Counted from the stretch's first letter, positions 6,098 to 34,784 are shown. The stretch: DNA of 45,812 nucleotides from Candidatus Woesebacteria bacterium GW2011_GWC1_42_9 (GCA_000995185.1 LCET01000009.1:1-45812); one strand, 5' to 3'. The notes: a model not told the origin generated them from the letters alone. Program-made: numbers and translations.

Positions 6098-6685
6098 ATG
6101 CTAGAAGAATCCCTATATAGATTCCGCTCCCAAATTATATTGGGACTTGTGGGGCTTGGACTTGCCGGCGCGGGTTTAATAATGACGAAATCAAGCTTCT
6201 TCACACCCACAAAAGTAGAGATACTAGGGGAAACTTCGGAGTCGACACCAAGTGGATCATTAGTAGTCGAAGTATCAGGAAGTGTCACAAATCCTGGAGT
6301 ATATGAGTTGGAAGCCAGCTCTCGTGTGGAGGATGCATTAACGGCGGCCGGCGGCCTTACTAGCGAAGCAGACTTAGATTGGATTGAGAAGGCGCTAAAT
6401 CGGGCGGCCAAAGTCGTCGACGGCCAAAAAATATACATCCCGGCAAAGGGCGAGGATGCTTTCTCAATTGCTACCAATAATTCGGGAACTTCACCAACTT
6501 CTGGAATGGTGAGCATTAACACCGCCAGTAAATCGCAGCTAGAAGCATTATGGGGGATAGGGCCGGCGACGGCGGATAAAATAATCGAGGCTAGGCCATT
6601 TTCGTCGGTGGAGGAGTTATTGTCTAAAAAGATCTTGAAGTCAAATGTATACGAAGCAAATAAAGACAAACTCACTGTTTATTAG
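6098..6685 (+). CDS. comEA: ComEA-like DNA receptor (TM anchor, SLBB-like region, helix-hairpin-helix)
   Basis: 195 aa. N-terminal TM helix. C-terminal INTASKSQLEALWGIGPATADKIIEARPFSSVEELL is a typical ComEA HhH motif. Confidence 0.85.
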   Translation: MLEESLYRFRSQIILGLVGLGLAGAGLIMTKSSFFTPTKVEILGETSESTPSGSLVVEVSGSVTNPGVYELEASSRVEDALTAAGGLTSEADLDWIEKALNRAAKVVDGQKIYIPAKGEDAFSIATNNSGTSPTSGMVSINTASKSQLEALWGIGPATADKIIEARPFSSVEELLSKKILKSNVYEANKDKLTVY

Positions 6686-7742
6686 GGATTGTCTCTTTTG
6701 GGGGTTATTACTTGCTGCCGTCATTTTCCGTTTTCAATCTACAAAGCCAGTTTACAGAGACGGAGACAAAATACGAGTATCCGGGCGGCTTTTAACTGAG
6801 CCGATCCGTTATTCAAACGCCCAGTATTTTCACCTTGAGAGATTGAAAGTTTACCTTCCGCTTTTCCCAGAAATATATTACGGAGATTATGTAGTTATCG
6901 AAGGCGTGGTGAGTGAGGATAAATTGACCTCCCCGGTTTTAGTTAACAGGATCGAGAGTAGAAATATGTTGTTTTTAATTAGAAGAAGACTAATCTCTTT
7001 TTATCAAGCTTCATTATCCGAGCCGCACGCGTCGCTGGTGGCAGGCATAGTTATCGGCGCAAAGTCTTCACTGCCTGAAGATTTTTGGAATGCTCTCAAG
7101 GCGACGGGTACCGCTCATGTTGTCGTGGCTAGCGGGATGAACGTGAGCATGACGGCAAGCTTTGTATTGGCTGCTTTGGTTAATTTTATTACCCGAAAAA
7201 GGGCAGTAATAATCGCGATCGTTTCTATATGGATATATACAGTGATGAGTGGGTTTGATGCCCCAATAATAAGAGCGGCCATAATGGGGAGCATCGCCTT
7301 TGGCGCGCAGAGCGTGGGGAGGCTTTCTTTGTCTTTGAGGGCTTTATTATTAAGCGCCGTTTTGATGTTAATCATTAATCCCAGGTGGATGACCGACTTG
7401 GGATTTGTTTTGTCCTTTTTGGCGACCTTAGCTTTGATCCTTTTTGAGTCAAAGATTAGGAGTAAGATACATTTTGTCCCAGGTGTATTCAGGGAGGGCT
7501 TATCCACTTCATTAGCCGCTCAAGTTGGCGTGGCTCCCGTTTTATACTATGTATTTGGGCAGTTTAACCCCGTTTCACCACTAATTAACGCTCTGATTCT
7601 CTGGACAATTGCGCCGATAATGGTAATCGGGTCATTGTCGGGTTTGCTTGGGATTTTTATGCCCTTTCTTGGCCGAGCAGTACTTTTATTGGCATTTCCA
7701 TTAACAAGTTGGTTTGTATTTGTAGTAAATTTATTCGGCTAA
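6645..7742 (+). CDS. comEC: ComEC/Rec2 channel protein, N-terminal OB-like and competence domains only
   Basis: 365 aa polytopic membrane protein with the competence-domain motif LKATGTAHVVVASGMNV. It overlaps comEA by 41 nt, so the true start may be later. Confidence 0.85.
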   Translation: MYTKQIKTNSLFIRDCLFWGLLLAAVIFRFQSTKPVYRDGDKIRVSGRLLTEPIRYSNAQYFHLERLKVYLPLFPEIYYGDYVVIEGVVSEDKLTSPVLVNRIESRNMLFLIRRRLISFYQASLSEPHASLVAGIVIGAKSSLPEDFWNALKATGTAHVVVASGMNVSMTASFVLAALVNFITRKRAVIIAIVSIWIYTVMSGFDAPIIRAAIMGSIAFGAQSVGRLSLSLRALLLSAVLMLIINPRWMTDLGFVLSFLATLALILFESKIRSKIHFVPGVFREGLSTSLAAQVGVAPVLYYVFGQFNPVSPLINALILWTIAPIMVIGSLSGLLGIFMPFLGRAVLLLAFPLTSWFVFVVNLFG

Positions 7743-7743
7743 G

Positions 7744-8583
7744 ATGTTTTGGAAAAAATTTATTAGTTTATTAGTTTTAATAGTTTTTTTGATATGGCTT
7801 TCGGCTTTGAAATACGATGGTTCGAATTTGCATGTTGTAGCTTGTGATGTAGGGCAAGGGGATGCAATTTTAATTACTCAAGGAGCATCACAGGTGCTTA
7901 TTGATGGCGGCCCAGATTCAAGGGTCTTAGAGTGCTTGGGGGAGTACCTGCCGTTTTGGGACAGGAAAATCGAATTGGTCGTTATGACCCATCCGCAGAA
8001 GGATCACTATGGAGGACTGACGGAGGTAATGGACCGATACCAGGTGGATTCCTTTTTAAAAACCGACGCGACGAGTAGCAGTCAAGACTTTGAAGTGCTA
8101 GAAAGGATGGTAGGGGGTGGGGGGATCAAAGTAATACAGCCAAAAACAGGTTTGGATATCCGAGTTGGTTTGATGTATTTGGAGATAGTTTACCCACCCG
8201 AAAATGTTAATATTGCTGAGGATCGTGATCCAAATGATTTTTCGGTAGTTTTGAAATTGAAGTATGGTGAGTTTGATGCGCTTTTTACAGGGGACATGGG
8301 ACCAAATATTGTTAGTGAAGTGATTGGCACCGGGTTAATTGGGGATATTGAGTATTTGAAGGTCCCGCATCACGGATCAAAGAATGGCCTAACCCAAGAG
8401 ATGTTGGAAGCGACAACCCCAGAAGTGGCAGTAGTCTCGGCGGGGAGAAATAATCGCTATGGACACCCTCACCAGGAAGTGCTGGGGATGCTAGATGATA
8501 TTGGCGTAAATATATTAAGAACCGATCTGGTGGGTAGTGTTGAGGTAGTGACGAATGGGAGTACATTTTGGGTGGAGAATTAA
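7744..8583 (+). CDS. ComEC-type metallo-beta-lactamase domain protein encoded as a separate ORF
   Basis: 279 aa with its own N-terminal TM helix. Motifs VVACDVGQGDAILI, THPQKDHYGG and VPHHGS are typical of the ComEC C-terminal MBL domain. It starts 1 nt after the comEC stop. Confidence 0.85.
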   Translation: MFWKKFISLLVLIVFLIWLSALKYDGSNLHVVACDVGQGDAILITQGASQVLIDGGPDSRVLECLGEYLPFWDRKIELVVMTHPQKDHYGGLTEVMDRYQVDSFLKTDATSSSQDFEVLERMVGGGGIKVIQPKTGLDIRVGLMYLEIVYPPENVNIAEDRDPNDFSVVLKLKYGEFDALFTGDMGPNIVSEVIGTGLIGDIEYLKVPHHGSKNGLTQEMLEATTPEVAVVSAGRNNRYGHPHQEVLGMLDDIGVNILRTDLVGSVEVVTNGSTFWVEN

Positions 8584-11536: not shown

Positions 11537-12004
11537 ATGGAAAAGACGGTGGTCTTGGTAAAACCCGATGCGCTTCAAAGGGGGTTGGTAGGGGAAATTA
11601 TCCAAAGATTTGAGAGAAAAGGCATGAAGCTTGTTGGGATCAAAATGATTACGTTTGATGATGAGACACTAGATGAGTGGTACGAGCATCACAAAGGCAA
11701 GGATTTTTTCGCTGATCTTAAGAAATTTATGACCTGGACACCGATAGTAGTCATGGTTTGGCAGGGTTTGGATGGGATTGCTACAGTTAGAAAGATAGTT
11801 GGAACTACAAAGGGCAGAGAGGCAGAATCAGGGTCAATCAGGGGAGATTTTGGGATGAGCGGCCAGCAAAACCTGATCCATGCTTCGGACTCGCCAGAGT
11901 CAGCCAAAAAAGAGATAAAGCTAATTTTTGATAAAGATGAGGTATTCGAATATGAATCAGCTTCAGAGTGCTTGATTTACTCGAAAGAAGAGACAAAAAG
12001 CTAG
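11537..12004 (+). CDS. ndk: nucleoside diphosphate kinase
   Basis: 155 aa. Motifs KTVVLVKPDALQRGLVGEIIQRFE and the active-site His region NLIHASDS. Confidence 0.95.
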   Translation: MEKTVVLVKPDALQRGLVGEIIQRFERKGMKLVGIKMITFDDETLDEWYEHHKGKDFFADLKKFMTWTPIVVMVWQGLDGIATVRKIVGTTKGREAESGSIRGDFGMSGQQNLIHASDSPESAKKEIKLIFDKDEVFEYESASECLIYSKEETKS

Positions 12005-15000
12005 TAATTTACTTTATCAACGATAAACCAGCCGAAGCTGATATCTTCTGATACTGGAGTGAGCGTTTCAACCTGGAAACCGTAGCCGCTTTCTTTTTCG
12101 GTCACCACAAGCGGAGAAAGAGTGGGCGAGGTGGGGGTGACCATGATGATGGAATTTGCGGTAACTAGCTCGCTTGGGATATATATCTCAGTCTTACCCT
12201 TGGTAATTATCCCGCTACCGGCGGATTCGCCGCTAACATTATATTTTTGGGCCGTAATTTCTTGAGCGGTGACATTGCCCTTTTCGTCGATGCTAACTAG
12301 CCCATTCATGATCTCGATCGACCCAAGCCTCCCGGGCTGAAGCTCCAGTGAGCCCACGGCATCAATCTTATTGTTGAGGCCATCAATAATTAACGTCCCG
12401 ACCGAAAGCTCGCCGCTTATCGAGACGTCCCCAAGAACAGCGCTCCCACTTACCGTAAGGTCAGTGATCTCTGATTCAAGATTCGTACTAATTTGAGTAT
12501 CAATTTGTTCTCCTTGTTGGTTTTCAAGATTATTGACTCGGCTTTCAAGCTCGATTATCCGCTGAGCCATCCTGGTCATGACCCCGCCGAGCTCTTCTTC
12601 CAAAGCTTCAATCTCTTCACTTGGGGCGCTAACTTCATCCTGGGCGATAACTTGTGAATCGAAATATCCGCCGAGAGCGTCCAATGTTATTGGTTCGGTG
12701 AGTAGTGATCCAGATTGGAGTGTACTGATACTTTTTGATCCACTCATCAGTAATTGGCTAGCTCTTGTCCAGTCGCTTCCGATCCCGCCGTCCCAGTAGC
12801 CCGTCTGGACAAAAGCCATGACTTTACCCTCATTATAGACGGCAGCGTCGGTTACGCCATCTTTGTTGTTGTCGTGAGTGATGAGCTGACCAGAAGCTGA
12901 AGCCTCAGCTGCGACTTGGCTTAAGTAGGCTTTAAGTTCTTCTTCAGTAAACTTAACATCTGGGGTTACCACATCGACTATGGTCGAACTGCCGTCAAAG
13001 TCTTCCATGGCGCGGCCTACAGAAATACCCGGATTCACGCCCTTCATGGCATAGCCAGGCTTAGAAGCGGGGACCAGGTAATCACCTTTCTTAATTGGAC
13101 CATTTTCTAGAGTCACTTTAACTGGTACTCTGCCTGCCAGAGCTACCTGAACAGTCTTAGCCTGGCCACTTTTGACTGCGCTGCCATCGGCATTGGTTGC
13201 TACGCCAGCAGTACTGCCATCTTCATTACCAAGCACCAGTCCAGGTTTGGTGGCGATGATACCAATAGCGTTCCTATCTTCTTTGCCTAGTGATTTAGTG
13301 ACGGAAATATCATTAACTGTATCAATACTAACTACATCTCCCGCCTCGGCAGTGAGGTCATAAGTTTGGTAGTACTCTGCCAAGTCGGCGCCGATTGGTT
13401 CAGTATAGGGGCCGATGGCCAGCCACTGCATGGTTACAGCCCCTAGATAGGTAGTATATGGGGGAATACTGATATAACGATTAACATTAAAAAAACCAGG
13501 TTGAGCGCTGGACACGTAAGCCCGCATATCCCAGGCACTCGTGTCAACACCGCTGACAACGTAGTGGAAACTGATAGGGCTCGTGACCACCATCGGCGTA
13601 CTGTCAAAAGTAATGCCGTAGTAAGTAGTGATTGTTTGACTGGCAGGAACAGCGCTGGCGGCTGGCAGATCAGTGGTGCCGGTCCTAATCACTTGATTTT
13701 TTAGTACGTTACCTGAACTATCGAGGGCTTTAACAGTACTCTGATTAAGACTATCTACTTGGTTAGTAAGGCTAGCAGTTTTTCTCAATAGAGACTCCCC
13801 AGTGTATTCTTTCCAGTAATGAGTGTCTGAGGTGATAAAGAGCTTGTTAGTACCCAGGGTTTGGATGGCGGTAATATCATCATAAGTGGCTCCCCAGGCG
13901 GTGCTGGTATCATCAGTCAGGCTAGCGGCTCCGTTATAGTATTGTTTGCCAATAAATTGGTAATCGTTTTGGCGCGTGAAGGCAAAAGCGCCGCCGCCAT
14001 CAGAGCCGTCATTGTCGCCGAAGTAAGCATTTTGCCCTTCCATAAAAATGGCTTTAGGCTCAATCACTCCCGGGTAGACATTTTTCAGGATCCTAAAGTC
14101 TGAGGTGGTGTCGGGAGTAGTGGCCCAATTTGGAGTAATAGTTAAGACGGTGGCCGTGTTTGACTTAACAGTTCGATATTGGCCAGAGCCGGTGCCGCCG
14201 GTGATTTCTACCATCTCACCCACAAACTCATTAGTCTTCCAAGCCATAGAGGAATCGCCGATGGTTGAAGCCGAGTAGTCGGTGGCATCAGCTACACCAG
14301 TGTGGAGCCAACCCTTACCGCGGTTCATTATTGCCTGGATTTCACTTTGAGAAAGGGCTTTATCATCGATGATAAACAAGTCATCCATGCCGCCGTCAAA
14401 GTCGGCGGTGGTGGCGCCGGTGACTCCCTGAGTGCCAAGATAGAGATTGATCCCATCTGTAGGTCTGGCTCCGGCCAGGCCGGTATCAACCAGCTGACCG
14501 TTCACATAAAAACTGCCCTCCGATACATTATCTGCAAAAGTAAAAGCTACATGGACCCACTCATCAACTGGCAGGGTTTGGGTGCTGGTCATGTTGGCGC
14601 CATCGTCATAAAATGCAAGAATGCCCGTAGCTTCAGAGTAGTAGAAAATCCAGCCATCACCCGTCGCGTTATAGGTACCCATGATGCCTTGGGTGGCTTG
14701 GACGTCGGCTGAATCAACTTTTAGCCAGCCGCCCATAGTAAATGAAGCTCCGAGGATTGGCACGTCGGCGTCGGCAACAATGAAGTACTCGTTAGAAGCA
14801 TTGTCAAAGTCCAAGGCCGAGTCAGCTGTCCCTTCAGGCCCGACAATCAGGGTGGGAGTGCCGGAAACAGAAGTGCTGTCGGCGCTGTTGCCGGAAATGT
14901 CGGTGGCGGCCGCGGCATTATCAAGATCATAAAAATTGTTATAAGTGCCTGATAAAGTAGAGTGGAAAATACCGCCTCTCTCTACAGTGCTTCCGTCTGC

Positions 15001-16152
15001 ATCAATTTGGAAGACGTCAACTCCGGCGCTAGAGCCGTAGTAGATCTTCATAGCCCTATCTTCATAGACCTCAAGCGCATATTTCGTCGAGCCGGGGTTG
15101 GCTAATATTTCCGGGGTGGTAGCGGTAGTAAAGTTCTGGTCAGCGGCGGTCACATCAGCAGTATCGCTTTGAATATCGGAAAAGACCTGGAGCTGAGTGG
15201 CAGTCTCGTTGGTAGCGATTAATTCACCGCCGGTAGTCAATCTAACATTATTAATATCATCGGTTGCGGCGCTGGTGTAGTACTTTCTGAGGACATCTTC
15301 CTTTGCTTTGTTAGGATCAAGAATATAAGCACTGCCGTCGGTCGCTAGGGCATAGTAGGTGACTCCGTTAACTTTAGTCACATCAAAGTCATTAACGGCG
15401 TCGTCTCCAAGGGCAAAGTCAGTATCAGTGTTGGTGGCATAAGAGTTAGTACCGTTACGGCCGGCGATGTTCTGGTCGGAAGTAGAGCGGTTGACGGCGT
15501 CATAGCGAATCAACCTATCCAGCTTAAAGTCGATAACAAACAAACCAGTATCGCCAGAGCCGCCATTGGTAGAGACAAAGACCTGGCCGTCTTGAGCATA
15601 AATCTCGGTAATTACCCCTTCAATTGCCTCGGCGGTGGTGCCGACACCAAATCTCATCCACAAGTTATTGGTGACTTCATCAATGATGATGAGTTCGGTG
15701 GAGGAGCCAATGATGACTGCTTTTTCTGGGAAGGCGGCTTGTTCACAACGGTCATCAGAGCCAGAAACATCGCACTCGACCCCCGCAGAAGCGTCAAGTG
15801 CTTCGGTGTACCAACTACTTGACTGAGCAGTGATGGAGTTTGTCCAGGTCCCGCCATCGGAATCCTTGGAAGTATCATAAGCGAACATGTCATAGATAGT
15901 GCCGATAGAGGTGGTAATTTCAGTTTGACTATCGAGAATAACGTCGCCTTTGATAGTTAGGTCGGCTGGGTTGGTTGAAGCGGTGCCGATGTTCACATTG
16001 CCATTATTGGCGATGGTAAAGACTGAAGTGCCGCTGGCGCTGGCGGTCAAGATATCATTACTTCCGGTTTCATTTAGAGTAACGAGAGCGTTTCCTATGG
16101 CTTGGCCATTTACTGTCAATAGGGAACTGGATGAGCCTGCCGTCTCGATCAC
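12001..16152 (-). CDS. C-terminal segment of a giant surface protein (LamG/concanavalin-like lectin domain, conserved NGPI-GD module, coiled coil)
   Basis: 1383 aa from a GTG. LamG-like region at about aa 405-612 (SFTMGGWLKV...WVHVAFTF...FYVNGQLV...LYLG...FDGGMDDLFIIDDKALSQSEIQ). Module GDVVSID...ALAGRVPVKVTLENGPIKKGDYLVPASKPGYAMKG...GRAMEDF. Coiled coil EEIEALEEEL...IIELESRVNNLENQ. Confidence 0.85.
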   Translation of the reverse strand: MIETAGSSSSLLTVNGQAIGNALVTLNETGSNDILTASASGTSVFTIANNGNVNIGTASTNPADLTIKGDVILDSQTEITTSIGTIYDMFAYDTSKDSDGGTWTNSITAQSSSWYTEALDASAGVECDVSGSDDRCEQAAFPEKAVIIGSSTELIIIDEVTNNLWMRFGVGTTAEAIEGVITEIYAQDGQVFVSTNGGSGDTGLFVIDFKLDRLIRYDAVNRSTSDQNIAGRNGTNSYATNTDTDFALGDDAVNDFDVTKVNGVTYYALATDGSAYILDPNKAKEDVLRKYYTSAATDDINNVRLTTGGELIATNETATQLQVFSDIQSDTADVTAADQNFTTATTPEILANPGSTKYALEVYEDRAMKIYYGSSAGVDVFQIDADGSTVERGGIFHSTLSGTYNNFYDLDNAAAATDISGNSADSTSVSGTPTLIVGPEGTADSALDFDNASNEYFIVADADVPILGASFTMGGWLKVDSADVQATQGIMGTYNATGDGWIFYYSEATGILAFYDDGANMTSTQTLPVDEWVHVAFTFADNVSEGSFYVNGQLVDTGLAGARPTDGINLYLGTQGVTGATTADFDGGMDDLFIIDDKALSQSEIQAIMNRGKGWLHTGVADATDYSASTIGDSSMAWKTNEFVGEMVEITGGTGSGQYRTVKSNTATVLTITPNWATTPDTTSDFRILKNVYPGVIEPKAIFMEGQNAYFGDNDGSDGGGAFAFTRQNDYQFIGKQYYNGAASLTDDTSTAWGATYDDITAIQTLGTNKLFITSDTHYWKEYTGESLLRKTASLTNQVDSLNQSTVKALDSSGNVLKNQVIRTGTTDLPAASAVPASQTITTYYGITFDSTPMVVTSPISFHYVVSGVDTSAWDMRAYVSSAQPGFFNVNRYISIPPYTTYLGAVTMQWLAIGPYTEPIGADLAEYYQTYDLTAEAGDVVSIDTVNDISVTKSLGKEDRNAIGIIATKPGLVLGNEDGSTAGVATNADGSAVKSGQAKTVQVALAGRVPVKVTLENGPIKKGDYLVPASKPGYAMKGVNPGISVGRAMEDFDGSSTIVDVVTPDVKFTEEELKAYLSQVAAEASASGQLITHDNNKDGVTDAAVYNEGKVMAFVQTGYWDGGIGSDWTRASQLLMSGSKSISTLQSGSLLTEPITLDALGGYFDSQVIAQDEVSAPSEEIEALEEELGGVMTRMAQRIIELESRVNNLENQQGEQIDTQISTNLESEITDLTVSGSAVLGDVSISGELSVGTLIIDGLNNKIDAVGSLELQPGRLGSIEIMNGLVSIDEKGNVTAQEITAQKYNVSGESAGSGIITKGKTEIYIPSELVTANSIIMVTPTSPTLSPLVVTEKESGYGFQVETLTPVSEDISFGWFIVDKVNY

Positions 16153-18085
16153 CAGCCTGAAGAGACGATCCTGCCGTTAAGTGGCGTGCAAGGATGGTGT
16201 CATATTGAACTTCATTGGAGAGGATGAGGTAGGTTTGACCAGCGCTTGCCCCACCGCCATCAATGTTTCCATATGCTCCAATCAAAATATCATCATATCC
16301 ATCTTTGTTGACATCTCCGGCACCGGAGACTGACCAACCACTATTATCACTCGCAGCCTCTCCCAAAAAACTGGCATTGGCAGCAGACAGGTCAGTATCC
16401 ATCGCCCAACCAGTGGCTTTCCCTAATATGAGGTAGGTCTGACCCGCACTTGCTCCGCCATCTTCATCTGCATATGCCCCAATCAAAATATCATCATACC
16501 CATCCCCATTGACGTCTCCTGCGCCAGAGACAGACCAGCCACTCCTGTCACTCGCATCTTCTCCCCAAAAGCTGGCATCGACTGCAGACAGACTGGTATC
16601 CATCGCCCAAGCAGTGGCTTTCCCCAGGATGAGATAGGTCTGACCTGCGCTGCTTCCTCCGGCATCATTCCCATACGCTCCAATCAAAATATCATCATAC
16701 CCATCCCCATTGGTGTCTCCGGCACCAGAGACAAACCAACCACTATTATCGTTCAAAGCCTCTCCCAAATAGCTGGCATCAGCGACAGATAAATCAGTAT
16801 CCATCGCCCAACCAGTGACTTTCCCTAATATGAGGTATGTCTGTCCGGCATTACTTGCTCCATTGTCATTTTGATATGCCCCAATAATGAAGTCATCATA
16901 CCCATCCGCATTGACATCTCTAGCACCAGAGATAGAAGTGCCACTCCGATCATCTGCATTTTCTCCCCAGAAAGAGGCATCAGCTGTAGATAGACTGGTA
17001 TCCATCGCCCAAGCAGTGGCTTTCCCTAATATGAGGTATGTCTGACCTGCAAGATTTCCTCCCTCTTCATCAAAGTTTGCCCCAATAATGAAGTCATCAT
17101 ACCCATCCCCATTGACATCTCCGGCACCGCTGACTGAAACTCCACTTTGATCATCTGCGTCTTCTCCCCAGAAAGAGGCATCAGCTGTAGATAGACTGGT
17201 ATCCATCGCCCAGCCTGTGGCTTTCCCCAGGATGAGATAAGTCTGACCTGCAAGATTTCCTCCATCATCATCTCCCCATGCCCCAATAATGAAGTCATCA
17301 TACCCATCCCCATTGACATCTCCGGCACCGCTGACTGAAACTCCACTTTGATCACCAGCGCCCTCACCTCTATAGGAAGCATCGGCTGCAGATAAATCAG
17401 TATCCATCGCCCAGCCTGTGGCTTTCCCCAGGATGAGATAAGTCTGTCCGGCTTGACTTGCTACATCGGCATCTAGATATGCGCCAATCGCCATGTCGTC
17501 ATAACCATCTCCATTAACGTCTCCAACGTTAGTGACAAAATAGCCACTAGAATCACCCGCGTCCTCTCCCCAAAAGCTGGCATTGGCAGTTGAGAGGTTC
17601 TGATCCATATCGTCAGCGTTTGTAACGGTTCCAATATCATAGGTGTTATTTGCGCCAGGGAGGAGAGTGCCGTCGTTTGTTATCGTGAATCGTGTTGTCG
17701 CCGACGCGCTTGCTGTAAAAATGTCATTGCCGCCAGTGTCATCGAAGGCGACAAGAGCGTTCCCTCCAGAGTATCCAGTAACTTCTAATCTGTGATCGGG
17801 AGCGTCGTTGCCTATTCCAACTCTGTTTGCACCAGCGTCTACGAAAAATAAATCATAAAGGGAAGTCCCTCCGACACGGAAGTTAACATCTACCCCTTGG
17901 GCATTGACAATTATTTCAGAAGAGTCCACCCCTTCTATTAGAAGTTGACCTGTTGAGTTTTGAATCCAGGAATCTGATCCATCATGGTAGAGATGCAAAT
18001 CATTACCTGCCCCGAGCCTGAGCCCCGCAGTTAACCCATCGGCTAGAAGATCAAGCTGCCCATTTGTATCAAGGCTGGCAAGCAT
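16070..18085 (-). CDS. middle segment of the giant surface protein: seven-blade FG-GAP/integrin-alpha-like beta-propeller
   Basis: 671 aa with seven 67-aa repeats, each containing GDVNGDGYDDxxIGA (FG-GAP Ca-binding loop) and AGQTYLILGKATGWAMDT. The frame stays open about 17 codons upstream of the listed ATG. The last ~30 aa look like out-of-frame read-through. Confidence 0.85.
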   Translation of the reverse strand: MLASLDTNGQLDLLADGLTAGLRLGAGNDLHLYHDGSDSWIQNSTGQLLIEGVDSSEIIVNAQGVDVNFRVGGTSLYDLFFVDAGANRVGIGNDAPDHRLEVTGYSGGNALVAFDDTGGNDIFTASASATTRFTITNDGTLLPGANNTYDIGTVTNADDMDQNLSTANASFWGEDAGDSSGYFVTNVGDVNGDGYDDMAIGAYLDADVASQAGQTYLILGKATGWAMDTDLSAADASYRGEGAGDQSGVSVSGAGDVNGDGYDDFIIGAWGDDDGGNLAGQTYLILGKATGWAMDTSLSTADASFWGEDADDQSGVSVSGAGDVNGDGYDDFIIGANFDEEGGNLAGQTYLILGKATAWAMDTSLSTADASFWGENADDRSGTSISGARDVNADGYDDFIIGAYQNDNGASNAGQTYLILGKVTGWAMDTDLSVADASYLGEALNDNSGWFVSGAGDTNGDGYDDILIGAYGNDAGGSSAGQTYLILGKATAWAMDTSLSAVDASFWGEDASDRSGWSVSGAGDVNGDGYDDILIGAYADEDGGASAGQTYLILGKATGWAMDTDLSAANASFLGEAASDNSGWSVSGAGDVNKDGYDDILIGAYGNIDGGGASAGQTYLILSNEVQYDTILARHLTAGSSLQAGDRDGRLIQFPIDSKWPSHRKRSRYSK
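16215..17620. repeat. seven tandem 201-bp repeats (FG-GAP blades), six of them highly similar at DNA level
   Basis: The string tatccatcgccca recurs at about 16396, 16597, 16798, 16999, 17200 and 17401, an exact 201-nt spacing. A degenerate copy lies near 17600. Confidence 0.85.
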
Positions 18086-19725
18086 TGTAGATCCATTGTT
18101 ATAAATTGTTGAATATGATAAACTTCTTCTGTAATATTTACAAAATGCTCATCTGTAAATATAGGAACTTGAAAACCATTATATTCATTCCATTTTGTTA
18201 TATCTAAACTGATTGGCAAACCTTTGACTATATATGGCAATGGTAAACAAGTCAGAGACATTCTCTTTAGCGAAGACCTAGTAAATCTGTTGGAATTACA
18301 GGCATTAAATATTAATAAGATTATATTGTTGACATATAGATTGTTCCAGTAGAGGAGAGATGACCCAAGATCGGCTCCGGAATCAACACTGGGGTTAACA
18401 GCCCCGCCTGAGCCAATGGAGAGGATGTCGGTCGTGGCATCATAGGTAAGCCCGGTGTCGCCGGCGATCGTAGAGGTGCCGGTCCAGTAAGTAAGCTGGT
18501 TTGCAATTCCAGTACCGCCAGTCCCTAGCCCTTCGGTTGTCCAGGTGCTTCCATTATAGACATAGAAGATATTATCGTCGCTATCCCAGGCGATATATCC
18601 CTCTCCGGCAGCAGGGGCAGTAAGTGATGTACTTTGAGGTAATTTGAATCCTTGTGCAGCAGTATCATTGTGTAATATCGCGGATAGATCAAGTAGGGCC
18701 CCGTCGGCTAAAGTGATTGAAGTGGAGTAGGTCGTGGCACCTGAAAAGGTATATGCCCCCGAGGCGGTATCTCCGGAATTGAAAAGGTATTTGTCGTCAA
18801 GTGTCACCTCACCGCTACTTACTCCGAAGTAGCTATCGCTAAATTTAGCAATTCCCTTGTTGTCGGTACTGGCATCCTCTCCGGCGATGGTGACTTGATT
18901 GGCGGCGCCTCGGGTGATATCAATCCCTTCTCCGGAAATAAGATTTAGGATCGCTCCATCAATTAGGGCGTCTTGAGTTGTTCCGTCGGTGGCAAACGAC
19001 CATGATGTATATGTATCGATCCCAGTCAGGTTGGATCCATCTCCGAAGACTGCACCGGTTACTTCTAAATCTCCCGAAATAAATAAATCATTGGTAGCAT
19101 CCATGATGTCGGAAGTCGGAAGTTCGCCTTCATTTGCAAAAGCGCTATAGATATTTGAAGTAATTCCTCCTACTGAGAGACTGCCACCTATAGTAACATC
19201 ATTTTTTAGGTTTGTAGGTACGTTTACATTAAAAATTATGTCTTCTGAGGAGATAGACTCGGCTAAAACCCTCCGCTCTTGATATGAATGCTTGATTTCG
19301 CTTAAAATACTGCTCCTATCTCTGGAATTTGGGGAAAAGATTTCAAAAGCATAGTTTTGCAGGGAAGTGGTTCTTAGTATAACAAATAGTATTAAAGCAA
19401 TACAGAAGGCGAGTGCATAGCCTTTTAATACTCGTAAGCTGATGTTGCGATTTTCATTAATTTCAGAAGCAGAAGTCGTATCTAGCTCATAAATACTGGG
19501 GTTGGCATGCGGAGCCGGTATAGTTTTTGCCCTATTTTTCGAGGTTTTATAGGCCTTAAGGTCATTTAGCAGATATCTTCGGTGATTGCCAGTCGTTCTT
19601 TGTGGAATTATTTTACCCTCAATTTCCCATCTACGAAGAGTCTTTTTACTAACTTTTAAAAACTCCGCAGCCTCAGCAATCGTAAAACTGTGATTGGTCG
19701 ATTTATCGTTCAGCAGGTTCCTCAT
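18043..19725 (-). CDS. N-terminal segment of the giant surface protein: excisionase/MerR-type HTH, one TM helix, extracellular beta-rich region
   Basis: HTH at aa 13-57 (FTIAEAAEFLKVSKKTLRRWEIEGKIIPQRTTGNHRRYLLNDL). TM helix at aa 101-119. The extracellular part is Gly/Thr/Asp-rich. Only the first ~467 aa (to 18325) look genuinely coding; the last ~93 aa are read-through of the AT-rich insert. Confidence 0.8.
   Translation of the reverse strand: MRNLLNDKSTNHSFTIAEAAEFLKVSKKTLRRWEIEGKIIPQRTTGNHRRYLLNDLKAYKTSKNRAKTIPAPHANPSIYELDTTSASEINENRNISLRVLKGYALAFCIALILFVILRTTSLQNYAFEIFSPNSRDRSSILSEIKHSYQERRVLAESISSEDIIFNVNVPTNLKNDVTIGGSLSVGGITSNIYSAFANEGELPTSDIMDATNDLFISGDLEVTGAVFGDGSNLTGIDTYTSWSFATDGTTQDALIDGAILNLISGEGIDITRGAANQVTIAGEDASTDNKGIAKFSDSYFGVSSGEVTLDDKYLFNSGDTASGAYTFSGATTYSTSITLADGALLDLSAILHNDTAAQGFKLPQSTSLTAPAAGEGYIAWDSDDNIFYVYNGSTWTTEGLGTGGTGIANQLTYWTGTSTIAGDTGLTYDATTDILSIGSGGAVNPSVDSGADLGSSLLYWNNLYVNNIILLIFNACNSNRFTRSSLKRMSLTCLPLPYIVKGLPISLDITKWNEYNGFQVPIFTDEHFVNITEEVYHIQQFITMDLQCLPALIQMGSLIF
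18095..18324. other. 230-bp AT-rich insert interrupting the giant surface-protein reading frame
   Basis: Hand count gives 63 G+C in 230 nt (27%), versus more than 50% in the flanking coding DNA. AACAAT (minus strand) occurs at 18330-18325 and 18100-18095. Removing 230 nt joins ...LYWNNLYVNN to GSTMLASLDTNGQ... in frame. Confidence 0.6.
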
Positions 19726-19888
19726 TTTGGCAGTATTTAATAATCTTGGACATTTGCTTCAAAATGTCTAATATCATTAATACAAAAATTACCCAATTTG
19801 TCAAGCACGAAATAAGGGAGGCTTATTTGTGTCAAGATAGAGTTTCTAGCTTGAATTCGAGCGAGCGATGTAATGGGCTGGTATTTTG

Positions 19889-19897: not shown

Positions 19898-19948
19898 GAA
19901 AAATAAGTGTTAGGAAGTACTTTAGCAGAATATCTTTGCAGTGTAAAT

Positions 19949-20004
19949 GCGGTAAATATAAAAGCCAATAGTTTTGATTACCGCAAAGCTAAATTATTTC
20001 CGCA
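19949..20004. promoter_or_regulatory. three GCGGWAAAT-type motif copies in the divergent region between the giant-protein gene and the 20040 gene
   Basis: GCGGTAAAT at 19949-19957, ATTACCGCA at 19977-19985 (inverted with respect to the first copy), ATTTCCGCA at 19996-20004. A further ATTACCGCA lies at 20078-20086, just inside the CDS. Confidence 0.4.
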
Positions 20005-20030
20005 ACTATATATTTGAGGCAAGCAGATAG

Positions 20031-20834
<804 letters not shown>

Positions 20835-20843
20835 TACATTGAT

Positions 20844-21347
20844 ATGTTTTTAAATAGAATTATACAATTAGTTAGAGGTAGAAGAGGCCCTGTCGGCCCA
20901 AGCGGGAACGTCCAGTCGCCAGTAATTGTCTTAGTTCTTGATGGTTGGGGAATCGCCCCGCTGTCTCAAGGGAATGCAATTAGCTTGGCAAAGACTCCAA
21001 ACATGAGTAGCTACCTGAAGTATTTCCCTCACGGTGAGCTGATCGCGGCCGGCGAGTCTGTGGGGCTCCCTGCCGGTGAGGCTGGAAATTCCGAGGTAGG
21101 GCACTTGACTATGGGGGCAGGTAAACCAACTCCTCAGAGTCTGACAAGGATAAATCGATCTGTTAAAGACGGGTCGTTTCATAATAACGCCGCTTTTTTG
21201 AAGGCCGTAAATCATGTCAAGGTGAATGGATCAAAGCTCCATCTCATGGGAATGGTAGGTAGCGGAGGAGTACACTCGTCAATTGACCATTTTTATTCTT
21301 TGATTGGCGACATTAGCCGGCCGCTACTACGCTATGGACCGCGATAA
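20844..21347 (+). pseudogene. gpmI: 2,3-bisphosphoglycerate-independent phosphoglycerate mutase, N-terminal fragment
   Basis: VLDGWGIAP..., GNSEVGHLTMGAG and GGVHSSIDH match iPGM up to about residue 130. The frame then runs out into unrelated residues and a stop. Confidence 0.75.
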
Positions 21348-22425
21348 ACGCTGGGATCGCACCAGAAAAGCCTATGATGCCATCGTGCTTGGGAGGGGAG
21401 GACAGGCGGTTTCAGCAGAGGAGGCAATAAAAAGTTCTTTTGCCCAGGGCGTGACAGACGAATTTATTGCTCCAGTTGTGATTATGGAGGGGGGGAAGCC
21501 TGTGGCGACAGTTGACGATAACGACGCCGTAATCTTTTTTAATTTTAGAATTGATCGCCCAAGGCAATTGACGATGGCTTTTGTTCTTCCTGATTTTGAA
21601 AAGATTGAAGGAATTGAGGTGGAGGTGGCCCCGCACGAGGAAAATATTCCTAGAAGAAAGAAGGAGTTGATTAAAGGACCGACTTTTAAGCGAGAGAAAT
21701 GGCCTAAAAACCTCTATTTTGTAACAATGACTGAGTATCACCGCGATTTTCCGGTTAGCGCAATTGCTTTCCCTCCCTTGGTCGTAGAAAATCCTCTTCC
21801 TAAAATTCTCTCCCAAAGTAGTATGAAGCAGCTTTGTTTAGCAGAAAGCGAGAAAGAAAAGATGGTCACTTTTTATTACAATGGGATGCGCGCAAAGGGG
21901 TTTGAAGGCGAAGATGCGGTTATTATCCCGTCCCCAAAAGTGGCTACCTATGACAAAAAGCCGGAGATGAGTTTATTTAAGATTATTGATGAGTTTAAGC
22001 GTCAGATAGCAAGGCGCTACTATCATTTTGCATTTGTAAATTTTGCCAATGCCGACATGGTTGCTCATAGCGGGAACCTGAAGGCTTCGATAAAGGCTTG
22101 CGAGTATATCGATAAAGCGGTGGGGGAATTTGTAACTGTTGCCTTACAATATAATGCGACGGTGATCATTTCGGCTGACCATGGCAATGCCGAAGACTTG
22201 CTGTCTTATCCTAATAAGTCTTTTTTCTTCACAACCCAGGAGGGCACCACCAATACAGAGCACTCTGCAAATCCTGTTCCAGTATTAATTATCAATAATT
22301 CCCTGCGCGGGAAAGCTGTTACACTTGAGAAAGGGTCTTTGGCTGATATCGCGCCAACGGTACTAGGGCTATTTGGCCTGCCGGTGCCGCCTGAAATGGA
22401 GGGAAAAGATTTATTAAAACAATGA
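21304..22425 (+). pseudogene. gpmI: 2,3-bisphosphoglycerate-independent phosphoglycerate mutase, C-terminal fragment in a different frame
   Basis: Starts at TTG directly after an in-frame TGA. ATLAGRYYAMDRDKRWDR, SPKVATYDKKPEMS, NFANADMVAHSG and SADHGNAE match iPGM from about residue 180 onward. About 46 aa, including the DGRD substrate-binding segment, are missing between the fragments. Confidence 0.75.
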
Positions 22426-33682: not shown

Positions 33683-33889
33683 TTGATGGATAAAAAGAAG
33701 ATTAATATTAAAAGTCTCCCGGATCTCCTTACAGTACGCGAAGTGGCAGAGCTATTAAGAGTTTCCCCTTTGACGATCAAGCGCTGGGGAAAGCGCGGAA
33801 AGCTCCCGCCGATTAGGATCAATTCTCGCGGGGATAGGCGCTATAAAAAAGAAGCGGTTTTATATCTCCTGGGAATTCAAGAAAGCTAG
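33683..33889 (+). CDS. small excisionase/MerR-type helix-turn-helix DNA-binding protein
   Basis: 68 aa. LTVREVAELLRVSPLTIKRWGKRGKLPPIRINSRGDRRYKKEAV closely parallels the HTH at the N-terminus of the giant protein. Confidence 0.8.
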   Translation: MMDKKKINIKSLPDLLTVREVAELLRVSPLTIKRWGKRGKLPPIRINSRGDRRYKKEAVLYLLGIQES

Positions 33890-34782: not shown

Positions 34783-34784
34783 CC

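What the first reader, a model, noticed from the sequence alone, without database searches (positions are those of the whole stretch)
12001..19725. Giant (~2,500 aa reconstructed) surface protein with a cytoplasmic HTH DNA-binding domain and a single TM helix at its N-terminus
Three consecutive, overlapping minus-strand ORFs (560, 671 and 1383 aa) share composition (about 50% GC, rich in Gly/Thr/Asp/Ala). They also share a recurring motif, GNALVxxxxTGxNDIxTASASxTxxFTIxNxG, present in both the 671- and 1383-aa pieces. They read like one protein: excisionase/MerR-type HTH (aa 13-57), TM helix (aa 101-119), beta-rich stalk, seven-blade FG-GAP propeller, further beta-rich regions, LamG lectin-like domain, NGPI-GD module, coiled coil and a C-terminal beta domain. 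A DNA-binding domain tethered to the membrane by an enormous adhesin-like ectodomain suggests surface contact or ligand binding could be coupled directly to gene regulation, or that the HTH is released by proteolysis. This would be attractive biology for an episymbiotic CPR cell. The HTH is closely similar to the stand-alone HTH at 33683-33889.
Basis: partly seen in the sequence, partly recalled or inferred. Interest (0 to 1): 0.7.

Follow-up and report, generated by a model that had tools for sequence, protein, structure and literature searches.

The report
Membrane-anchored giant surface fibre with DNA-binding tail
The three reading frames are one 2,617-residue gene of a groundwater ultra-small (Patescibacteria) bacterium: a short DNA-binding domain inside the cell, one membrane helix, and a huge phage-tail-fibre-like stalk outside; it looks split only because this sequence record carries three local errors.

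Summary
In detail: three minus-strand ORFs (560, 671 and 1383 aa) carry an N-terminal MerR/excisionase-type winged HTH, a single TM helix, seven FG-GAP blades, a LamG domain and a conserved C-terminal module.

The split is specific to this record. Twelve independent contigs of the same population are 100% identical to the window apart from three lesions. One of them carries a single uninterrupted 2,617-aa gene and an intact iPGM. The lesions are:
- about 210 bp of foreign DNA replacing about 227 bp, including 133 bp that are 99% identical to an epimerase gene of another organism;
- a 107-bp deletion;
- a 137-bp deletion in the neighbouring iPGM.

The architecture is not unique. Of the 150 best representative matches to the N-terminus, 98 have HTH(s) followed by a TM segment. 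Of the 23 proteins of 1,000 aa or more, 22 do (up to 5,623 aa), and many share this gene's C-terminal domain.

The HTH is closest to BldC, RacA and Xis: a wHTH with no dimerisation helix. The C-terminal module resembles the phage phi29 gp12 autochaperone.

Best reading: a type-II anchored, probably trimeric, surface fibre or adhesin whose cytoplasmic HTH binds DNA at the membrane. Whether it regulates transcription or tethers the nucleoid was not tested. It is a new variant of the ToxR-like principle, and I found no paper describing it.

The parts
12001..19725 (-). The whole gene as it appears in this record (three ORFs). The intact allele is one ORF of 2,617 aa.
   Evidence: ORFs. L021 gene 1833-9686 is 2,617 aa. 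ORF1 aa 1-469, ORF2 aa 1-646 and ORF3 aa 2-1383 correspond to residues 1-469, 554-1199 and 1236-2617 of it at 100% identity.
19540..19689 (-). Cytoplasmic winged helix-turn-helix of MerR/excisionase/BldC type (aa 13-62)
   Evidence: Pfam MerR E 1.1e-11, HTH_17 E 4.5e-10. TIGR01764 30.4 bits, above its cut-off; HTH_BldC E 1.6e-8, below its cut-off. AF2 pLDDT 94-98, beta-alpha-alpha-beta-beta-alpha. Foldseek hits RacA, CarH, BldC and Xis. By phmmer, BldC is the best PDB hit, E 1.1e-5.
19369..19431 (-). Single transmembrane helix (aa ~99-119), acting as a signal anchor
   Evidence: It is the only Kyte-Doolittle window above 1.6 in all three ORFs. AF2 gives a long helix at aa 86-130 with pLDDT 94-96.
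18793..18933 (-). Phage-tail-fibre-type repeat GEGIDITRG...AGEDASTDNKGIAKFSDSYFGVSSGEVTLDD (aa 265-311); the DLGSSLLYWNNLY motif lies further downstream
   Evidence: the ectodomain of ORF1 hits only proteins built from this repeat.
18111..18322 (.). Foreign or mis-assembled block that replaces ~227 bp of genuine coding sequence. Positions 18191-18323 (+ strand) are a fragment of an NAD-dependent sugar epimerase gene.
   Evidence: epimerase; PDB 1orr E 2.5e-6; 132/133 nt identical to L014/P0181. GC 0.27, lowest 0.1% of the contig; six other contigs carry the genuine sequence (GC 0.515).
17669..17767 (-). First copy of the 33-aa family motif GGNALVAFDDTGGNDIFTASASATTRFTITNDG
   Evidence: The same motif recurs in relatives P0026, P0040, P0049 and P0106.
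16226..17575 (-). Seven-blade FG-GAP (integrin-alpha-like) propeller with seven Ca-loop motifs
   Evidence: Pfam FG-GAP E 1.9e-43, 7 stretches. DxNxDGxxD at ORF2 aa 189, 256, 323, 390, 457, 524, 591. 201-nt tandem period.
16147..16149 (.). Point where 107 bp (about 36 codons, ...LSIIGETLSSSGHLAINAENISLNKSGDLDLTGNVN...) are missing from this record. This creates the ORF2/ORF3 frame change.
16000..16098 (-). Second copy of the family motif IGNALVTLNETGSNDILTASASGTSVFTIANNG
14335..14796 (-). LamG / concanavalin-A-like lectin domain (ORF3 aa ~453-606)
   Evidence: Pfam Laminin_G_3 E 9.3e-21, profile 3-151 of 151.
12883..13395 (-). Conserved beta-rich module GADLAEYY...VALAGRVPVKV...NGPIKKGD (ORF3 aa ~920-1090), resembling the phi29 gp12 C-terminal autochaperone
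   Evidence: Hits 17 of the HTH-bearing relatives. AF2 core pLDDT 80-93. Foldseek 3gqh E 5.6e-5 and 3suc E 2.3e-4.
12505..12621 (-). Coiled-coil helix (ORF3 aa ~1178-1216)
   Evidence: AF2 helix at model residues 273-311.
12004..12507 (-). C-terminal family domain ending ...FGWFIVDKVNY; always the extreme C-terminus in relatives
   Evidence: AF2 beta-sandwich pLDDT ~90. Genome loci.
19777..19804 (-). Promoter-like TTGACA, 16 nt, TATTAA, upstream of the gene
   Evidence: Read directly. Not reported by the consensus scan. Inference only.
19737..19780 (.). Imperfect palindrome (19-nt arms, 16/19 complementary, 6-nt gap) between the -10 box and the ATG. Candidate operator or 5'-UTR hairpin.
   Evidence: None of 300 dinucleotide shuffles reaches 16/19. 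Unique in the window. RNA fold -11.7 kcal/mol, z -2.7.
33683..33889 (+). Stand-alone 68-aa BldC-like wHTH; the only other member of this HTH family in the window

Best explanation
Window 12001-19725 is one gene, broken in this record only by local sequence errors. In the natural population it encodes a 2,617-aa type-II (N-in) single-pass membrane protein, laid out as follows:
- Residues 1-~70: a cytoplasmic BldC/excisionase-type winged HTH with no dimerisation helix.
- A ~30-aa flexible linker leading to the only TM helix.
- About 2,500 extracellular residues forming a modular fibre: phage-tail-fibre repeats, a 7-blade Ca-loop FG-GAP propeller, a LamG lectin domain, a phi29-gp12-like C-terminal assembly module, a coiled coil and a terminal beta-sandwich.

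It belongs to a large family of Patescibacteria proteins with the plan 'one or two HTHs, one TM helix, giant ectodomain'.

Most likely mechanism: the ectodomain assembles, probably as a trimer like tail fibres, into a surface fibre or adhesin that binds glycans or host surfaces. The HTHs stay at the inner face of the membrane and bind DNA there without being released. The first candidate target is the palindrome over the gene's own promoter (cis-autoregulation). A wider ToxR-like regulatory role or a RacA-like nucleoid tether are the alternatives.

Shown: single gene, domain content, family architecture, fold of the HTH.
Inferred: topology, trimerisation, adhesion, DNA binding and its target.
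For: Single gene:
- L021 and 11 other contigs of the same population are 100% identical to the window except at three lesions. L021 carries one 2,617-aa ORF plus an intact 572-aa iPGM.
- Every contig covering a lesion agrees with L021.
- ORF2 and ORF3 have no signal peptide or TM helix.
- ORF3 aa 2 aligns to residue 849 of its closest homologue, the 2,387-aa P0025.

Family:
- 1,927 representatives match the N-terminal 140 aa at E<=1e-3. Of the best 150, 98 have a TM-like segment after the last HTH (95 have exactly one). This holds for 22 of 23 proteins >=1,000 aa and 52 of 54 >=400 aa.
- 17 and 28 of them share the two C-terminal modules of ORF3, always at their own C-terminus.
- L008 is a single ORF of >=3,484 aa that starts inside an HTH, has a TM helix, and holds modules like those of ORF1, ORF2 and ORF3.

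Topology:
- 18 K/R in residues 1-100.
- Net charge N-side +1.78 against C-side +0.66; N>C in 64 relatives, N<C in 19.

HTH:
- Pfam, NCBIfam, AF2 and Foldseek.
- The T-L-R-R-W recognition helix and the R-T-x-G-G-x-R-R-Y wing are nearly invariant across relatives.

Fibre:
- Tail-fibre repeats and the similarity to phi29 gp12.

Operator candidate.
Against: - There is no experimental evidence for DNA binding, topology, oligomeric state or adhesion.
- Some proteins with the same C-terminal modules have no HTH (P0030; L013 starts with several TM-like segments). P0025 has a different small N-terminal domain, integrase-SAM-like with weak support. The HTH is therefore dispensable for building the fibre.
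- BldC-type domains bind direct repeats head-to-tail (PMC5859096), whereas the candidate site here is an inverted repeat. It could equally be an RNA hairpin.
- The gp12 match has TM-score 0.50 (normalised to the target) and rmsd ~11 A, on a model with mean pLDDT 63.
- That the lesions are assembly artefacts is inferred from 12 concordant contigs, not from read mapping.
Confidence: 0.7

Rival explanations
1. The lesions are biological. The sampled genome carries a recently inactivated copy (a pseudogene): a small foreign insertion or replacement and a 107-bp deletion, with a 137-bp deletion in iPGM as well.
For: - Short microhomologies sit at the breakpoints: ATTGTT at both ends of the replaced block, GAT at the 107-bp deletion.
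- These organisms encode ComEC, so uptake of foreign DNA is plausible.
Against: - Three lesions of roughly read length (107, 137 and ~210 bp) lie within 5.2 kb of otherwise 100% identical sequence. One of them breaks a core glycolytic gene.
- All 12 other contigs, from several runs and assemblers, lack them.
- The foreign piece is 132/133 identical to another organism's gene in a metagenome scaffold whose name (ANAN16-1) suggests a related data set, though I could not confirm that. Its homology stops abruptly, and a second unrelated 80-bp piece lies next to it.
Confidence: 0.12
2. Three separate genes, each with its own start: an HTH-TM protein, an FG-GAP protein and a LamG protein.
For: ORF2 starts with ATG and ORF3 with GTG. 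Most genes of this contig lack a Shine-Dalgarno sequence, so its absence says nothing.
Against: - The intact single ORF exists in the same population.
- ORF2 and ORF3 have no export signal.
- Relatives are single polypeptides.
Confidence: 0.01
3. The HTH is a ToxR/CadC-like transmembrane regulator. Ligand or host binding by the ectodomain changes HTH oligomerisation and so the transcription of target genes.
For: - The topology is the same as in ToxR-like receptors, which bind DNA while in the membrane (PMC5430869, PMC10629549, PMC7888679).
- The wHTH lacks its own dimerisation helix, so DNA affinity should depend on how the rest of the protein oligomerises.
- A candidate operator lies at the gene's own promoter.
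Against: - The recognition helix is nearly invariant across very divergent family members. That fits a common or low-specificity DNA target better than many distinct regulons.
- A ~30-aa disordered linker and a 2,500-aa stalk make transmission of a conformational signal hard to picture.
- No target genes are known.
Confidence: 0.25
4. The HTH is an architectural DNA tether, like RacA or Xis. It holds the nucleoid, or incoming DNA, at the membrane under the fibre rather than regulating specific genes.
For: - The best structural match is the RacA DNA-binding domain bound to DNA (5i44, E 5e-4); Xis and RdfS are also hit.
- Most relatives carry two tandem HTHs. Some membrane proteins carry up to eight with hardly any ectodomain (P0031).
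- The recognition helix is conserved.
Against: - BldC, the closest relative by sequence, is a transcription factor (PMC5859096).
- This gene has only one HTH.
- There is no evidence of any kind on localisation.
Confidence: 0.25
5. The HTH is released by regulated intramembrane proteolysis and then acts as a soluble factor.
For: Only the precedent of other membrane-tethered factors (general knowledge). The linker at aa 68-85 is predicted flexible.
Against: - No protease site or partner was identified.
- In cells this small the nucleoid lies next to the membrane, so release is unnecessary.
- ToxR-type proteins work unreleased (PMC10629549).
Confidence: 0.08
6. The N-terminal domain no longer binds DNA. 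It serves as a positively charged cytoplasmic plug that fixes N-in orientation, or as a protein-interaction module.
For: - Different small domains, or none, occupy this position in proteins with the same C-terminus.
- Any folded basic domain would enforce this topology.
Against: Residues typical of DNA contact in MerR/BldC domains (TLRRW, RTxGGxRRY) are the most conserved positions of the whole protein family. The alternative N-terminal domain in P0025 is also of a DNA-binding type, though with weak support.
Confidence: 0.15

Closest known systems
ToxR-like transmembrane transcription regulators (ToxR, TcpP, CadC, PsaE, VtrA)
   Same: An N-terminal cytoplasmic winged-helix DNA-binding domain, a flexible linker, one TM helix and a C-terminal extracytoplasmic domain. 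They bind DNA while inserted in the membrane (PMC5430869, PMC10629549, PMC7888679).
   Different: Their DNA-binding domain is of OmpR/PhoB type; here it is MerR/BldC/excisionase type. Their outer domain is a sensor of 100-250 aa; here it is a ~2,500-aa tail-fibre-like stalk with propeller and lectin domains. No regulatory target is known here.
BldC (Streptomyces), a 68-aa MerR-like wHTH-only regulator
   Same: Best PDB hit by sequence (E 1.1e-5, shared RT-x-GGHRRY wing) and a very close fold match (38-40% identity, rmsd 1.7-1.8 A). Both lack the MerR coiled coil and effector domain.
   Different: BldC is a free cytoplasmic protein that multimerises head-to-tail on direct repeats (PMC5859096). 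Here the domain is fused to a TM helix and a giant ectodomain, and it scores below the NCBIfam BldC cut-off (34 against 77 bits).
RacA (Bacillus subtilis chromosome-anchoring protein) and the Xis/RdfS excisionases
   Same: The same wHTH fold; RacA-DNA is the top Foldseek hit. These are architectural DNA binders that anchor DNA to the cell pole or shape it.
   Different: RacA reaches the membrane through a coiled coil and DivIVA (my own knowledge), not a TM helix. Excisionases work with integrases, and none is near this gene.
Phage tail fibres and tailspikes with a C-terminal intramolecular chaperone (phi29 gp12 appendage; endosialidase-type S74 domains)
   Same: Tail-fibre-type repeats in the stalk. 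The conserved C-terminal module matches the phi29 gp12 C-terminal fragment and pre-mature gp12. Some relatives instead carry SDxRLK motifs of S74 type (sequences; my own reading).
   Different: This is a chromosomal gene among housekeeping genes. The N-terminus is anchored in the cell membrane rather than in a baseplate. Trimerisation and self-cleavage were not tested.
Giant FG-GAP/LamG surface proteins of CPR and other bacteria (integrin-alpha-like propellers, concanavalin-like lectin domains)
   Same: A 7-blade Ca-loop propeller and a LamG domain in a very long, Cys-poor, Gly/Thr/Asp/Ala-rich extracellular protein.
   Different: The cytoplasmic DNA-binding domain at the N-terminus. I found no paper that mentions it.

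Membership tests
ToxR-like transmembrane transcription regulators | Cytoplasmic N-terminal DNA-binding domain of the OmpR/PhoB winged-helix type | tested here: not met
   The domain is MerR/HTH_17/BldC type. There is no OmpR-type hit.
ToxR-like transmembrane transcription regulators | Single TM helix with the DNA-binding domain inside and the C-terminal domain outside | tested here: met
   One hydrophobic segment, AF2 helix, positive-inside bias. Orientation is inferred, not measured.
ToxR-like transmembrane transcription regulators | Binds promoter DNA and controls transcription while in the membrane | not testable with these tools
   Only a candidate palindrome at the gene's own promoter.
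Canonical MerR-family regulators | N-terminal wHTH | tested here: met
   Pfam MerR 44.7 bits, above the 28.2 cut-off. Fold.
Canonical MerR-family regulators | Long antiparallel coiled-coil dimerisation helix directly after the wHTH | tested here: not met
   After helix 53-67 comes a low-confidence linker (aa 68-85), then the TM helix. Full-length MerR proteins align with rmsd above 10 A.
Canonical MerR-family regulators | C-terminal effector-binding domain | tested here: not met
   None found. A TM helix and the ectodomain follow instead.
BldC family (wHTH-only MerR-like proteins) | MerR-like wHTH without coiled coil or effector domain | tested here: met
BldC family (wHTH-only MerR-like proteins) | Score above the curated NCBIfam HTH_BldC cut-off; small free protein | tested here: not met
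   34.3 bits against a cut-off of 77, and the domain is fused to 2,500 further residues. The stand-alone ORF at 33683-33889 also stays below the cut-off (45 bits).
BldC family (wHTH-only MerR-like proteins) | Head-to-tail multimers on DNA direct repeats | not testable with these tools
   Feature as described in PMC5859096. That most relatives have two tandem HTHs is only suggestive.
Excisionase / recombination directionality factors (TIGR01764, HTH_17) | Excisionase-type DNA-binding domain | tested here: met
   TIGR01764 30.4 bits, above the 28.8 cut-off; HTH_17 40.1 bits, above 27.
Excisionase / recombination directionality factors (TIGR01764, HTH_17) | Partnership with an integrase on a mobile element | tested here: not met
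   No integrase or phage genes among the window's ORFs. The neighbours are NDK, ArgRS, iPGM and ATP synthase.
Integrin-alpha-like FG-GAP beta-propeller | Seven FG-GAP repeats with Ca-binding DxDxDG-type loops | tested here: met
   7 Pfam stretches, E 1.9e-43. Seven DxNxDGxxD loops at 67-aa spacing.
Tail fibre/tailspike with C-terminal autochaperone (phi29 gp12-like) | C-terminal domain with the gp12 autochaperone fold | tested here: inconclusive
   Foldseek 3gqh E 5.6e-5, prob 1.0, but TM-score 0.50 (normalised to the target) and rmsd 10.9 A, on a model with mean pLDDT 63.
Tail fibre/tailspike with C-terminal autochaperone (phi29 gp12-like) | Trimer formation and self-cleavage of the chaperone | not testable with these tools
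   No multimer modelling or biochemistry was available.
Unnamed Patescibacteria family 'HTH(s), TM, giant ectodomain, ...FDWWIVD C-terminal domain' | One or two N-terminal wHTHs, one TM helix 17-142 aa later, long ectodomain, shared C-terminal domain at the very end | tested here: met
   The intact allele has all four features.

The most novel reading that the evidence does not exclude
In hundreds of Patescibacteria lineages, giant tail-fibre-like surface appendages are joined to the chromosome by a BldC-type HTH on the same polypeptide. The assembly or host-contact state of a fibre, which sets how many HTHs are clustered under the membrane, would then be read out directly on DNA, as transcription control or as positioning of the nucleoid at the host-contact site. 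That would be a one-protein path from cell surface to genome, in cells too small to need a diffusible messenger.
Probability: 0.25. Interest if true: 0.85.

Novelty: new variant of a known kind. Interest (0 to 1): 0.62.

Why it matters
Cultivated Patescibacteria live attached to host cells, and how they sense and hold on to hosts is largely unknown. This gene belongs to a populous, apparently undescribed family in which the largest surface proteins of these organisms carry a conserved DNA-binding domain at their cytoplasmic end. Annotation pipelines therefore label 2,000-5,000-aa surface proteins as 'MerR family transcriptional regulator' or 'excisionase'. If the HTH binds DNA at the membrane, that would be a very direct link between the cell surface and the genome, and it would extend the ToxR principle to a different DNA-binding fold and a fibre-sized ectodomain. 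The case also carries a practical warning. Three 'broken' genes in this record come from local lesions in this one record, most likely assembly errors, and such lesions would wrongly inflate pseudogene counts in reduced genomes.

Tried and rejected
1. My own repair was wrong in detail. I deleted 18095-18324 (230 bp, flanked by AACAAT) and 16144-16177 (34 bp, flanked by ACGGCAGG), which gave an open 2,486-aa frame. The real allele shows a ~227-bp replacement and a 107-bp deletion. The direct repeats I relied on were misleading.

2. A scan of genome contigs with ORF3 alone found no relative. An alignment of 16 C-terminal domains was too divergent to be searched. A 3-sequence alignment worked.

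3. Two exact 30-mers next to junction 1 gave 0 hits in metagenome contigs, although JGI contigs holding those very sequences exist (L019, L024). The word-indexed protein search with ORF1 also did not return the 2,617-aa protein. Absence in those searches was therefore not evidence of absence.

4. Exact look-ups of ORF3 and of P0024 found nothing. Looking up the two flanking genes was what worked.

5. Absence of a Shine-Dalgarno sequence before ORF2 and ORF3 was dropped as an argument, because most genes of this contig lack one.

6. I considered an excisionase or prophage context and rejected it: no integrase or phage genes are nearby.

7. The 80-96 bp of the foreign block outside the epimerase match (18111-18190) has no match in PDB or in the fetched loci. 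Its origin is unknown.

8. Six literature searches for this architecture found no description of it.

Full report
**What is in the window.** They are in frames 0/1/0 and overlap by 43 and 83 nt.
- ORF1 aa 14-62 is a MerR/HTH_17 helix-turn-helix (Pfam E 1.1e-11 and 4.5e-10).
- The only hydrophobic, TM-like segment in all three ORFs is ORF1 aa ~99-119.
- ORF2 holds seven FG-GAP repeats (E 1.9e-43). Seven DxNxDGxxD loops are spaced exactly 67 aa apart, on a 201-nt DNA period.
- ORF3 has no Pfam hit when scanned whole. Its aa ~453-606 scanned alone match Laminin_G_3 at E 9.3e-21.
- The 33-aa motif shared by ORF2 and ORF3 is real: 24/40 identical, E 1e-11.
- The neighbours are housekeeping genes: NDK, ArgRS, an M16 peptidase, iPGM, the ATP synthase operon, MreB and ribosomal proteins. 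This is a chromosome, not a phage or plasmid.

**The junctions are not simple frameshifts.**
- After ...DLGSSLLYWNNLYVNNI, the ORF1 frame runs into an AT-rich stretch with GC 0.27, in the lowest 0.1% of 230-bp windows of the contig.
- The plus strand of that stretch encodes a fragment of an NAD-dependent sugar epimerase (Pfam PF01370 E 5.5e-4; PDB CDP-tyvelose 2-epimerase E 2.5e-6).
- A protein search with that fragment found P0181. Its 803-bp contig (L014, record ANAN16-1_SAMN03202994..., GC 0.34) is 132/133 nt identical to window 18191-18323. The homology stops abruptly at both ends.
- The neighbouring iPGM is also split into two ORFs, and about 45 positions of the iPGM_N profile are missing between them.
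- I first tried to repair the gene by removing two segments flanked by short direct repeats. This gave an open 2,486-aa frame. That repair later proved wrong in detail.

**The decisive result.** I looked up contigs that encode exactly the two flanking proteins, NDK and the 264-aa ORF at 20040. This returned twelve independent contigs. They come from:
- ENA and Logan assemblies of runs SRR1658462, SRR1658465 and SRR1658343 (BioProject PRJNA268031);
- SRR2177968 (PRJNA292723);
- ENA ERZ27254728;
- JGI 3300025015 and 3300009285.

PRJNA268031 is described as groundwater filtrates and has been used for Patescibacteriota work (PMC6251912, PMC12911398).

L021 (55,959-bp contig) has the same gene order. 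It carries one minus-strand gene of 2,617 aa with MerR, HTH_17 and FG-GAP hits, followed by the 264-aa gene and an intact 572-aa iPGM. Wherever these contigs overlap the window (positions 1537-30697), they are 100% identical or nearly so. The exceptions are three places, plus a few mismatches in L015 and L017 inside the FG-GAP repeats:
- Window 18111 to ~18322 (~210 bp of foreign sequence) replaces ~227 bp of genuine coding sequence with GC 0.515.
- 107 bp are missing at 16147-16149.
- 137 bp are missing in iPGM at 21306/21307.

Six contigs cover each lesion, and all agree with L021 at 100% identity. In the intact protein:
- ORF1 aa 1-469 = residues 1-469;
- ORF2 aa 1-646 = residues 554-1199;
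- ORF3 aa 2-1383 = residues 1236-2617.

So the gene is a single ORF in nature. The three-ORF appearance belongs to this record alone. Three read-length lesions in otherwise identical sequence point to local mis-assembly, especially as one contains DNA from a different organism. A real rare variant cannot be excluded without read mapping.

**The architecture is a family trait.** A full HMMER search of 1.84 billion representatives with ORF1 aa 1-140 gave 1,927 hits at E<=1e-3.
- Among the best 150, 98 have a hydrophobic segment after the last HTH, and 95 have exactly one.
- This holds for 52 of 54 proteins of 400 aa or more and 22 of 23 of 1,000 aa or more, up to 5,623 aa.
- 114 carry two tandem HTHs. 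One membrane protein carries eight.
- The HTH-to-TM linker has a median of 54.5 aa. Net charge is +1.78 on the N-side and +0.66 on the C-side, which fits HTH-in, stalk-out.
- Source annotations call such proteins 'MerR family DNA-binding transcriptional regulator [Candidatus Daviesbacteria]' (2,180 aa) or 'excisionase family DNA binding protein' (2,519 aa).

The two C-terminal modules of ORF3 hit 17 and 28 of these HTH-bearing proteins, always at their extreme C-terminus. The modules are GADLAEYY...VALAGRVPVKV...NGPIKKGD and the final ~170 aa ending FDWWIVD.

A scan of GTDB species genomes with the C-terminal domain found 12 loci. Seven were labelled Woesebacteria, Microgenomatus, Moraniibacteriota, Parcubacteria or Patescibacteria. 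One of them, L008, is a continuous ORF of at least 3,484 aa. It begins inside an HTH, has a TM helix, and contains modules like those of ORF1, ORF2 and ORF3.

The closest homologue of ORF3 is P0025 (2,387 aa, 50% identity over 1,130 aa). It is uninterrupted and has a TM helix at ~aa 75. It carries a different small N-terminal domain with integrase-SAM-like motifs (weak: Pfam E 0.21) and lacks the FG-GAP propeller. The N-terminal cytoplasmic module and the stalk modules are therefore exchangeable.

**What the domains look like.**
- *N-terminus.* An AF2 model of residues 1-133 (33-sequence alignment; mean pLDDT 81.6) gives a beta-alpha-alpha-beta-beta-alpha winged HTH at aa 11-67 with pLDDT 94-98. 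A low-confidence linker follows (aa 68-85), then one long helix at aa 86-130.
- *Fold matches of the N-terminus.* Foldseek against the PDB returns the RacA DNA-binding domain on DNA (E 5e-4), CarH, BldC-DNA complexes (38-40% identity, rmsd 1.7-1.8 A), Pukovnik Xis, GlnR, RdfS and MerR proteins.
- *Sequence matches of the N-terminus.* BldC is the best PDB hit (E 1.1e-5). NCBIfam ranks HTH_BldC first but below its cut-off, while TIGR01764 'excise' passes. BldC is a wHTH-only MerR relative that multimerises head-to-tail on direct repeats. RacA and Xis are architectural DNA binders with the same fold (PMC5859096).
- *Stalk.* It contains repeats otherwise seen in phage-tail-fibre-like proteins.
- *C-terminus.* An AF2 model of the last 478 aa (mean pLDDT 63; the two beta domains reach 80-93) best matches the C-terminal fragment of phage phi29 gp12 and pre-mature gp12 (E 5.6e-5 and 2.3e-4). 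Other tailspikes follow. From my own knowledge, that gp12 domain is an intramolecular trimerisation chaperone; here the match is only a lead.

**How it most likely works.**
- *Shown:* one gene; a wHTH, one TM helix and a giant modular ectodomain; a widespread family.
- *Inferred:* the TM helix acts as a signal anchor. The ~2,500-aa stalk is exported and, like the tail fibres it resembles, trimerises from its C-terminal module into a surface fibre. The FG-GAP propeller and LamG domain bind host or surface ligands.
- *The HTH.* It has no dimerisation helix, so its affinity for DNA should depend on how many copies the fibre brings together under the membrane.
- *A candidate target.* An imperfect palindrome (19-nt arms, 16/19, 6-nt gap) sits at 19737-19780, between a TTGACA-16-TATTAA promoter-like element and the ATG. 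None of 300 shuffles reaches that score, and it is unique in the window. It could also be an RNA hairpin.
- *A second candidate.* Four of the window's ten TTWCCGCA sites cluster at 19948-20086.
- *My commitment.* The HTH binds DNA while anchored (about 0.55). Cis-autoregulation at its own promoter is the single most likely use (about 0.3). A ToxR-like sensor-regulator and a RacA-like tether follow at about 0.25 each. The near-invariance of the recognition helix across very different family members and the multi-HTH arrays lean towards a common or architectural DNA target. The relation to BldC and the promoter palindrome lean towards regulation.

**Comparison with what is known, and novelty.**
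- The protein works like a ToxR/CadC-type transmembrane regulator. It is not a member, because the DNA-binding fold differs.
- It is not a canonical MerR protein: it has no coiled coil and no effector domain.
- It is not an excisionase in function: there is no integrase partner.
- It scores below the BldC family cut-off.
- Six literature searches found no description of HTH-anchored giant surface proteins in Patescibacteria. The library is incomplete, so this is not proof of absence.
- I rate it a new variant of a known kind, real and widespread, with the function of its most unusual part untested.

Noticed in passing
window 20844-22425 (break at 21306/21307): iPGM is split into 167-aa and 373-aa ORFs because 137 bp are missing from this record. 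Six other contigs of the same population carry an intact 572-aa gene.
   Followed up: yes
window 18111-18322; L014 289-421: The foreign block is a mosaic. 133 bp are 99% identical to an epimerase/GDP-mannose-dehydratase-family gene on an 803-bp metagenome scaffold (GC 0.34). The adjacent ~80 bp (GC ~0.23) are of unknown origin and read as an open frame, KWNEYNGFQVPIFTDEHFVNITEEVYHIQQF, on the minus strand.
   Followed up: partly
window 19737-19780: Imperfect palindrome (16/19, 6-nt gap) overlapping the putative -10 box and 5'-UTR of the giant gene. It exceeds all 300 shuffles and is unique in the window.
   Followed up: partly
window 19948-20086 (also 2754 and 2845): Four of ten TTWCCGCA octamers in the window (3.4 expected by chance) cluster within 139 bp, between the giant gene and the divergent 264-aa gene. 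Two more lie in the AT-rich intergenic region upstream of LeuRS. The motif was chosen after seeing the data.
   Followed up: partly
window 33683-33889: A stand-alone 68-aa BldC-like wHTH (HTH_BldC E 6.9e-12, below cut-off; TIGR01764 passes). It lies just upstream of a 7TM_transglut / ATP-grasp / RimK / methyltransferase cluster (33922-37643).
   Followed up: partly
window 6645-7742 and 7744-8583: ComEC is encoded as two adjacent ORFs: a Competence domain, then a metallo-beta-lactamase domain. The same split is present in the independent contigs L015 and L016, so it is genuine here.
   Followed up: partly
L001 2566-3057 and 3050-10213: P0025, the closest homologue of ORF3, starts with an integrase-SAM-like motif followed by a TM helix. 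It is preceded by a 163-aa protein made of SAM-like repeats. This looks like a different putative DNA-binding module in the same position.
   Followed up: partly
P0031 (623 aa), P0032 (1015 aa): Relatives made almost entirely of tandem HTHs. P0031 has eight copies, then one TM helix and a short tail. P0032 has at least five copies detected (more by eye) and no TM helix. They may be DNA-organising proteins.
   Followed up: no
window 20040-20834: The divergently transcribed 264-aa ORF has no family assignment (only a faint GHMP_kinases_N hit, E 0.008). It is perfectly conserved in 19 contigs.
   Followed up: no
tools:: Several searches that should have found the intact allele returned nothing: the word-indexed protein search, the exact look-up of ORF3, and exact 30-mers in metagenome contigs. 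Look-ups with the neighbouring genes found twelve contigs. Negative results from those collections need caution.
   Followed up: yes
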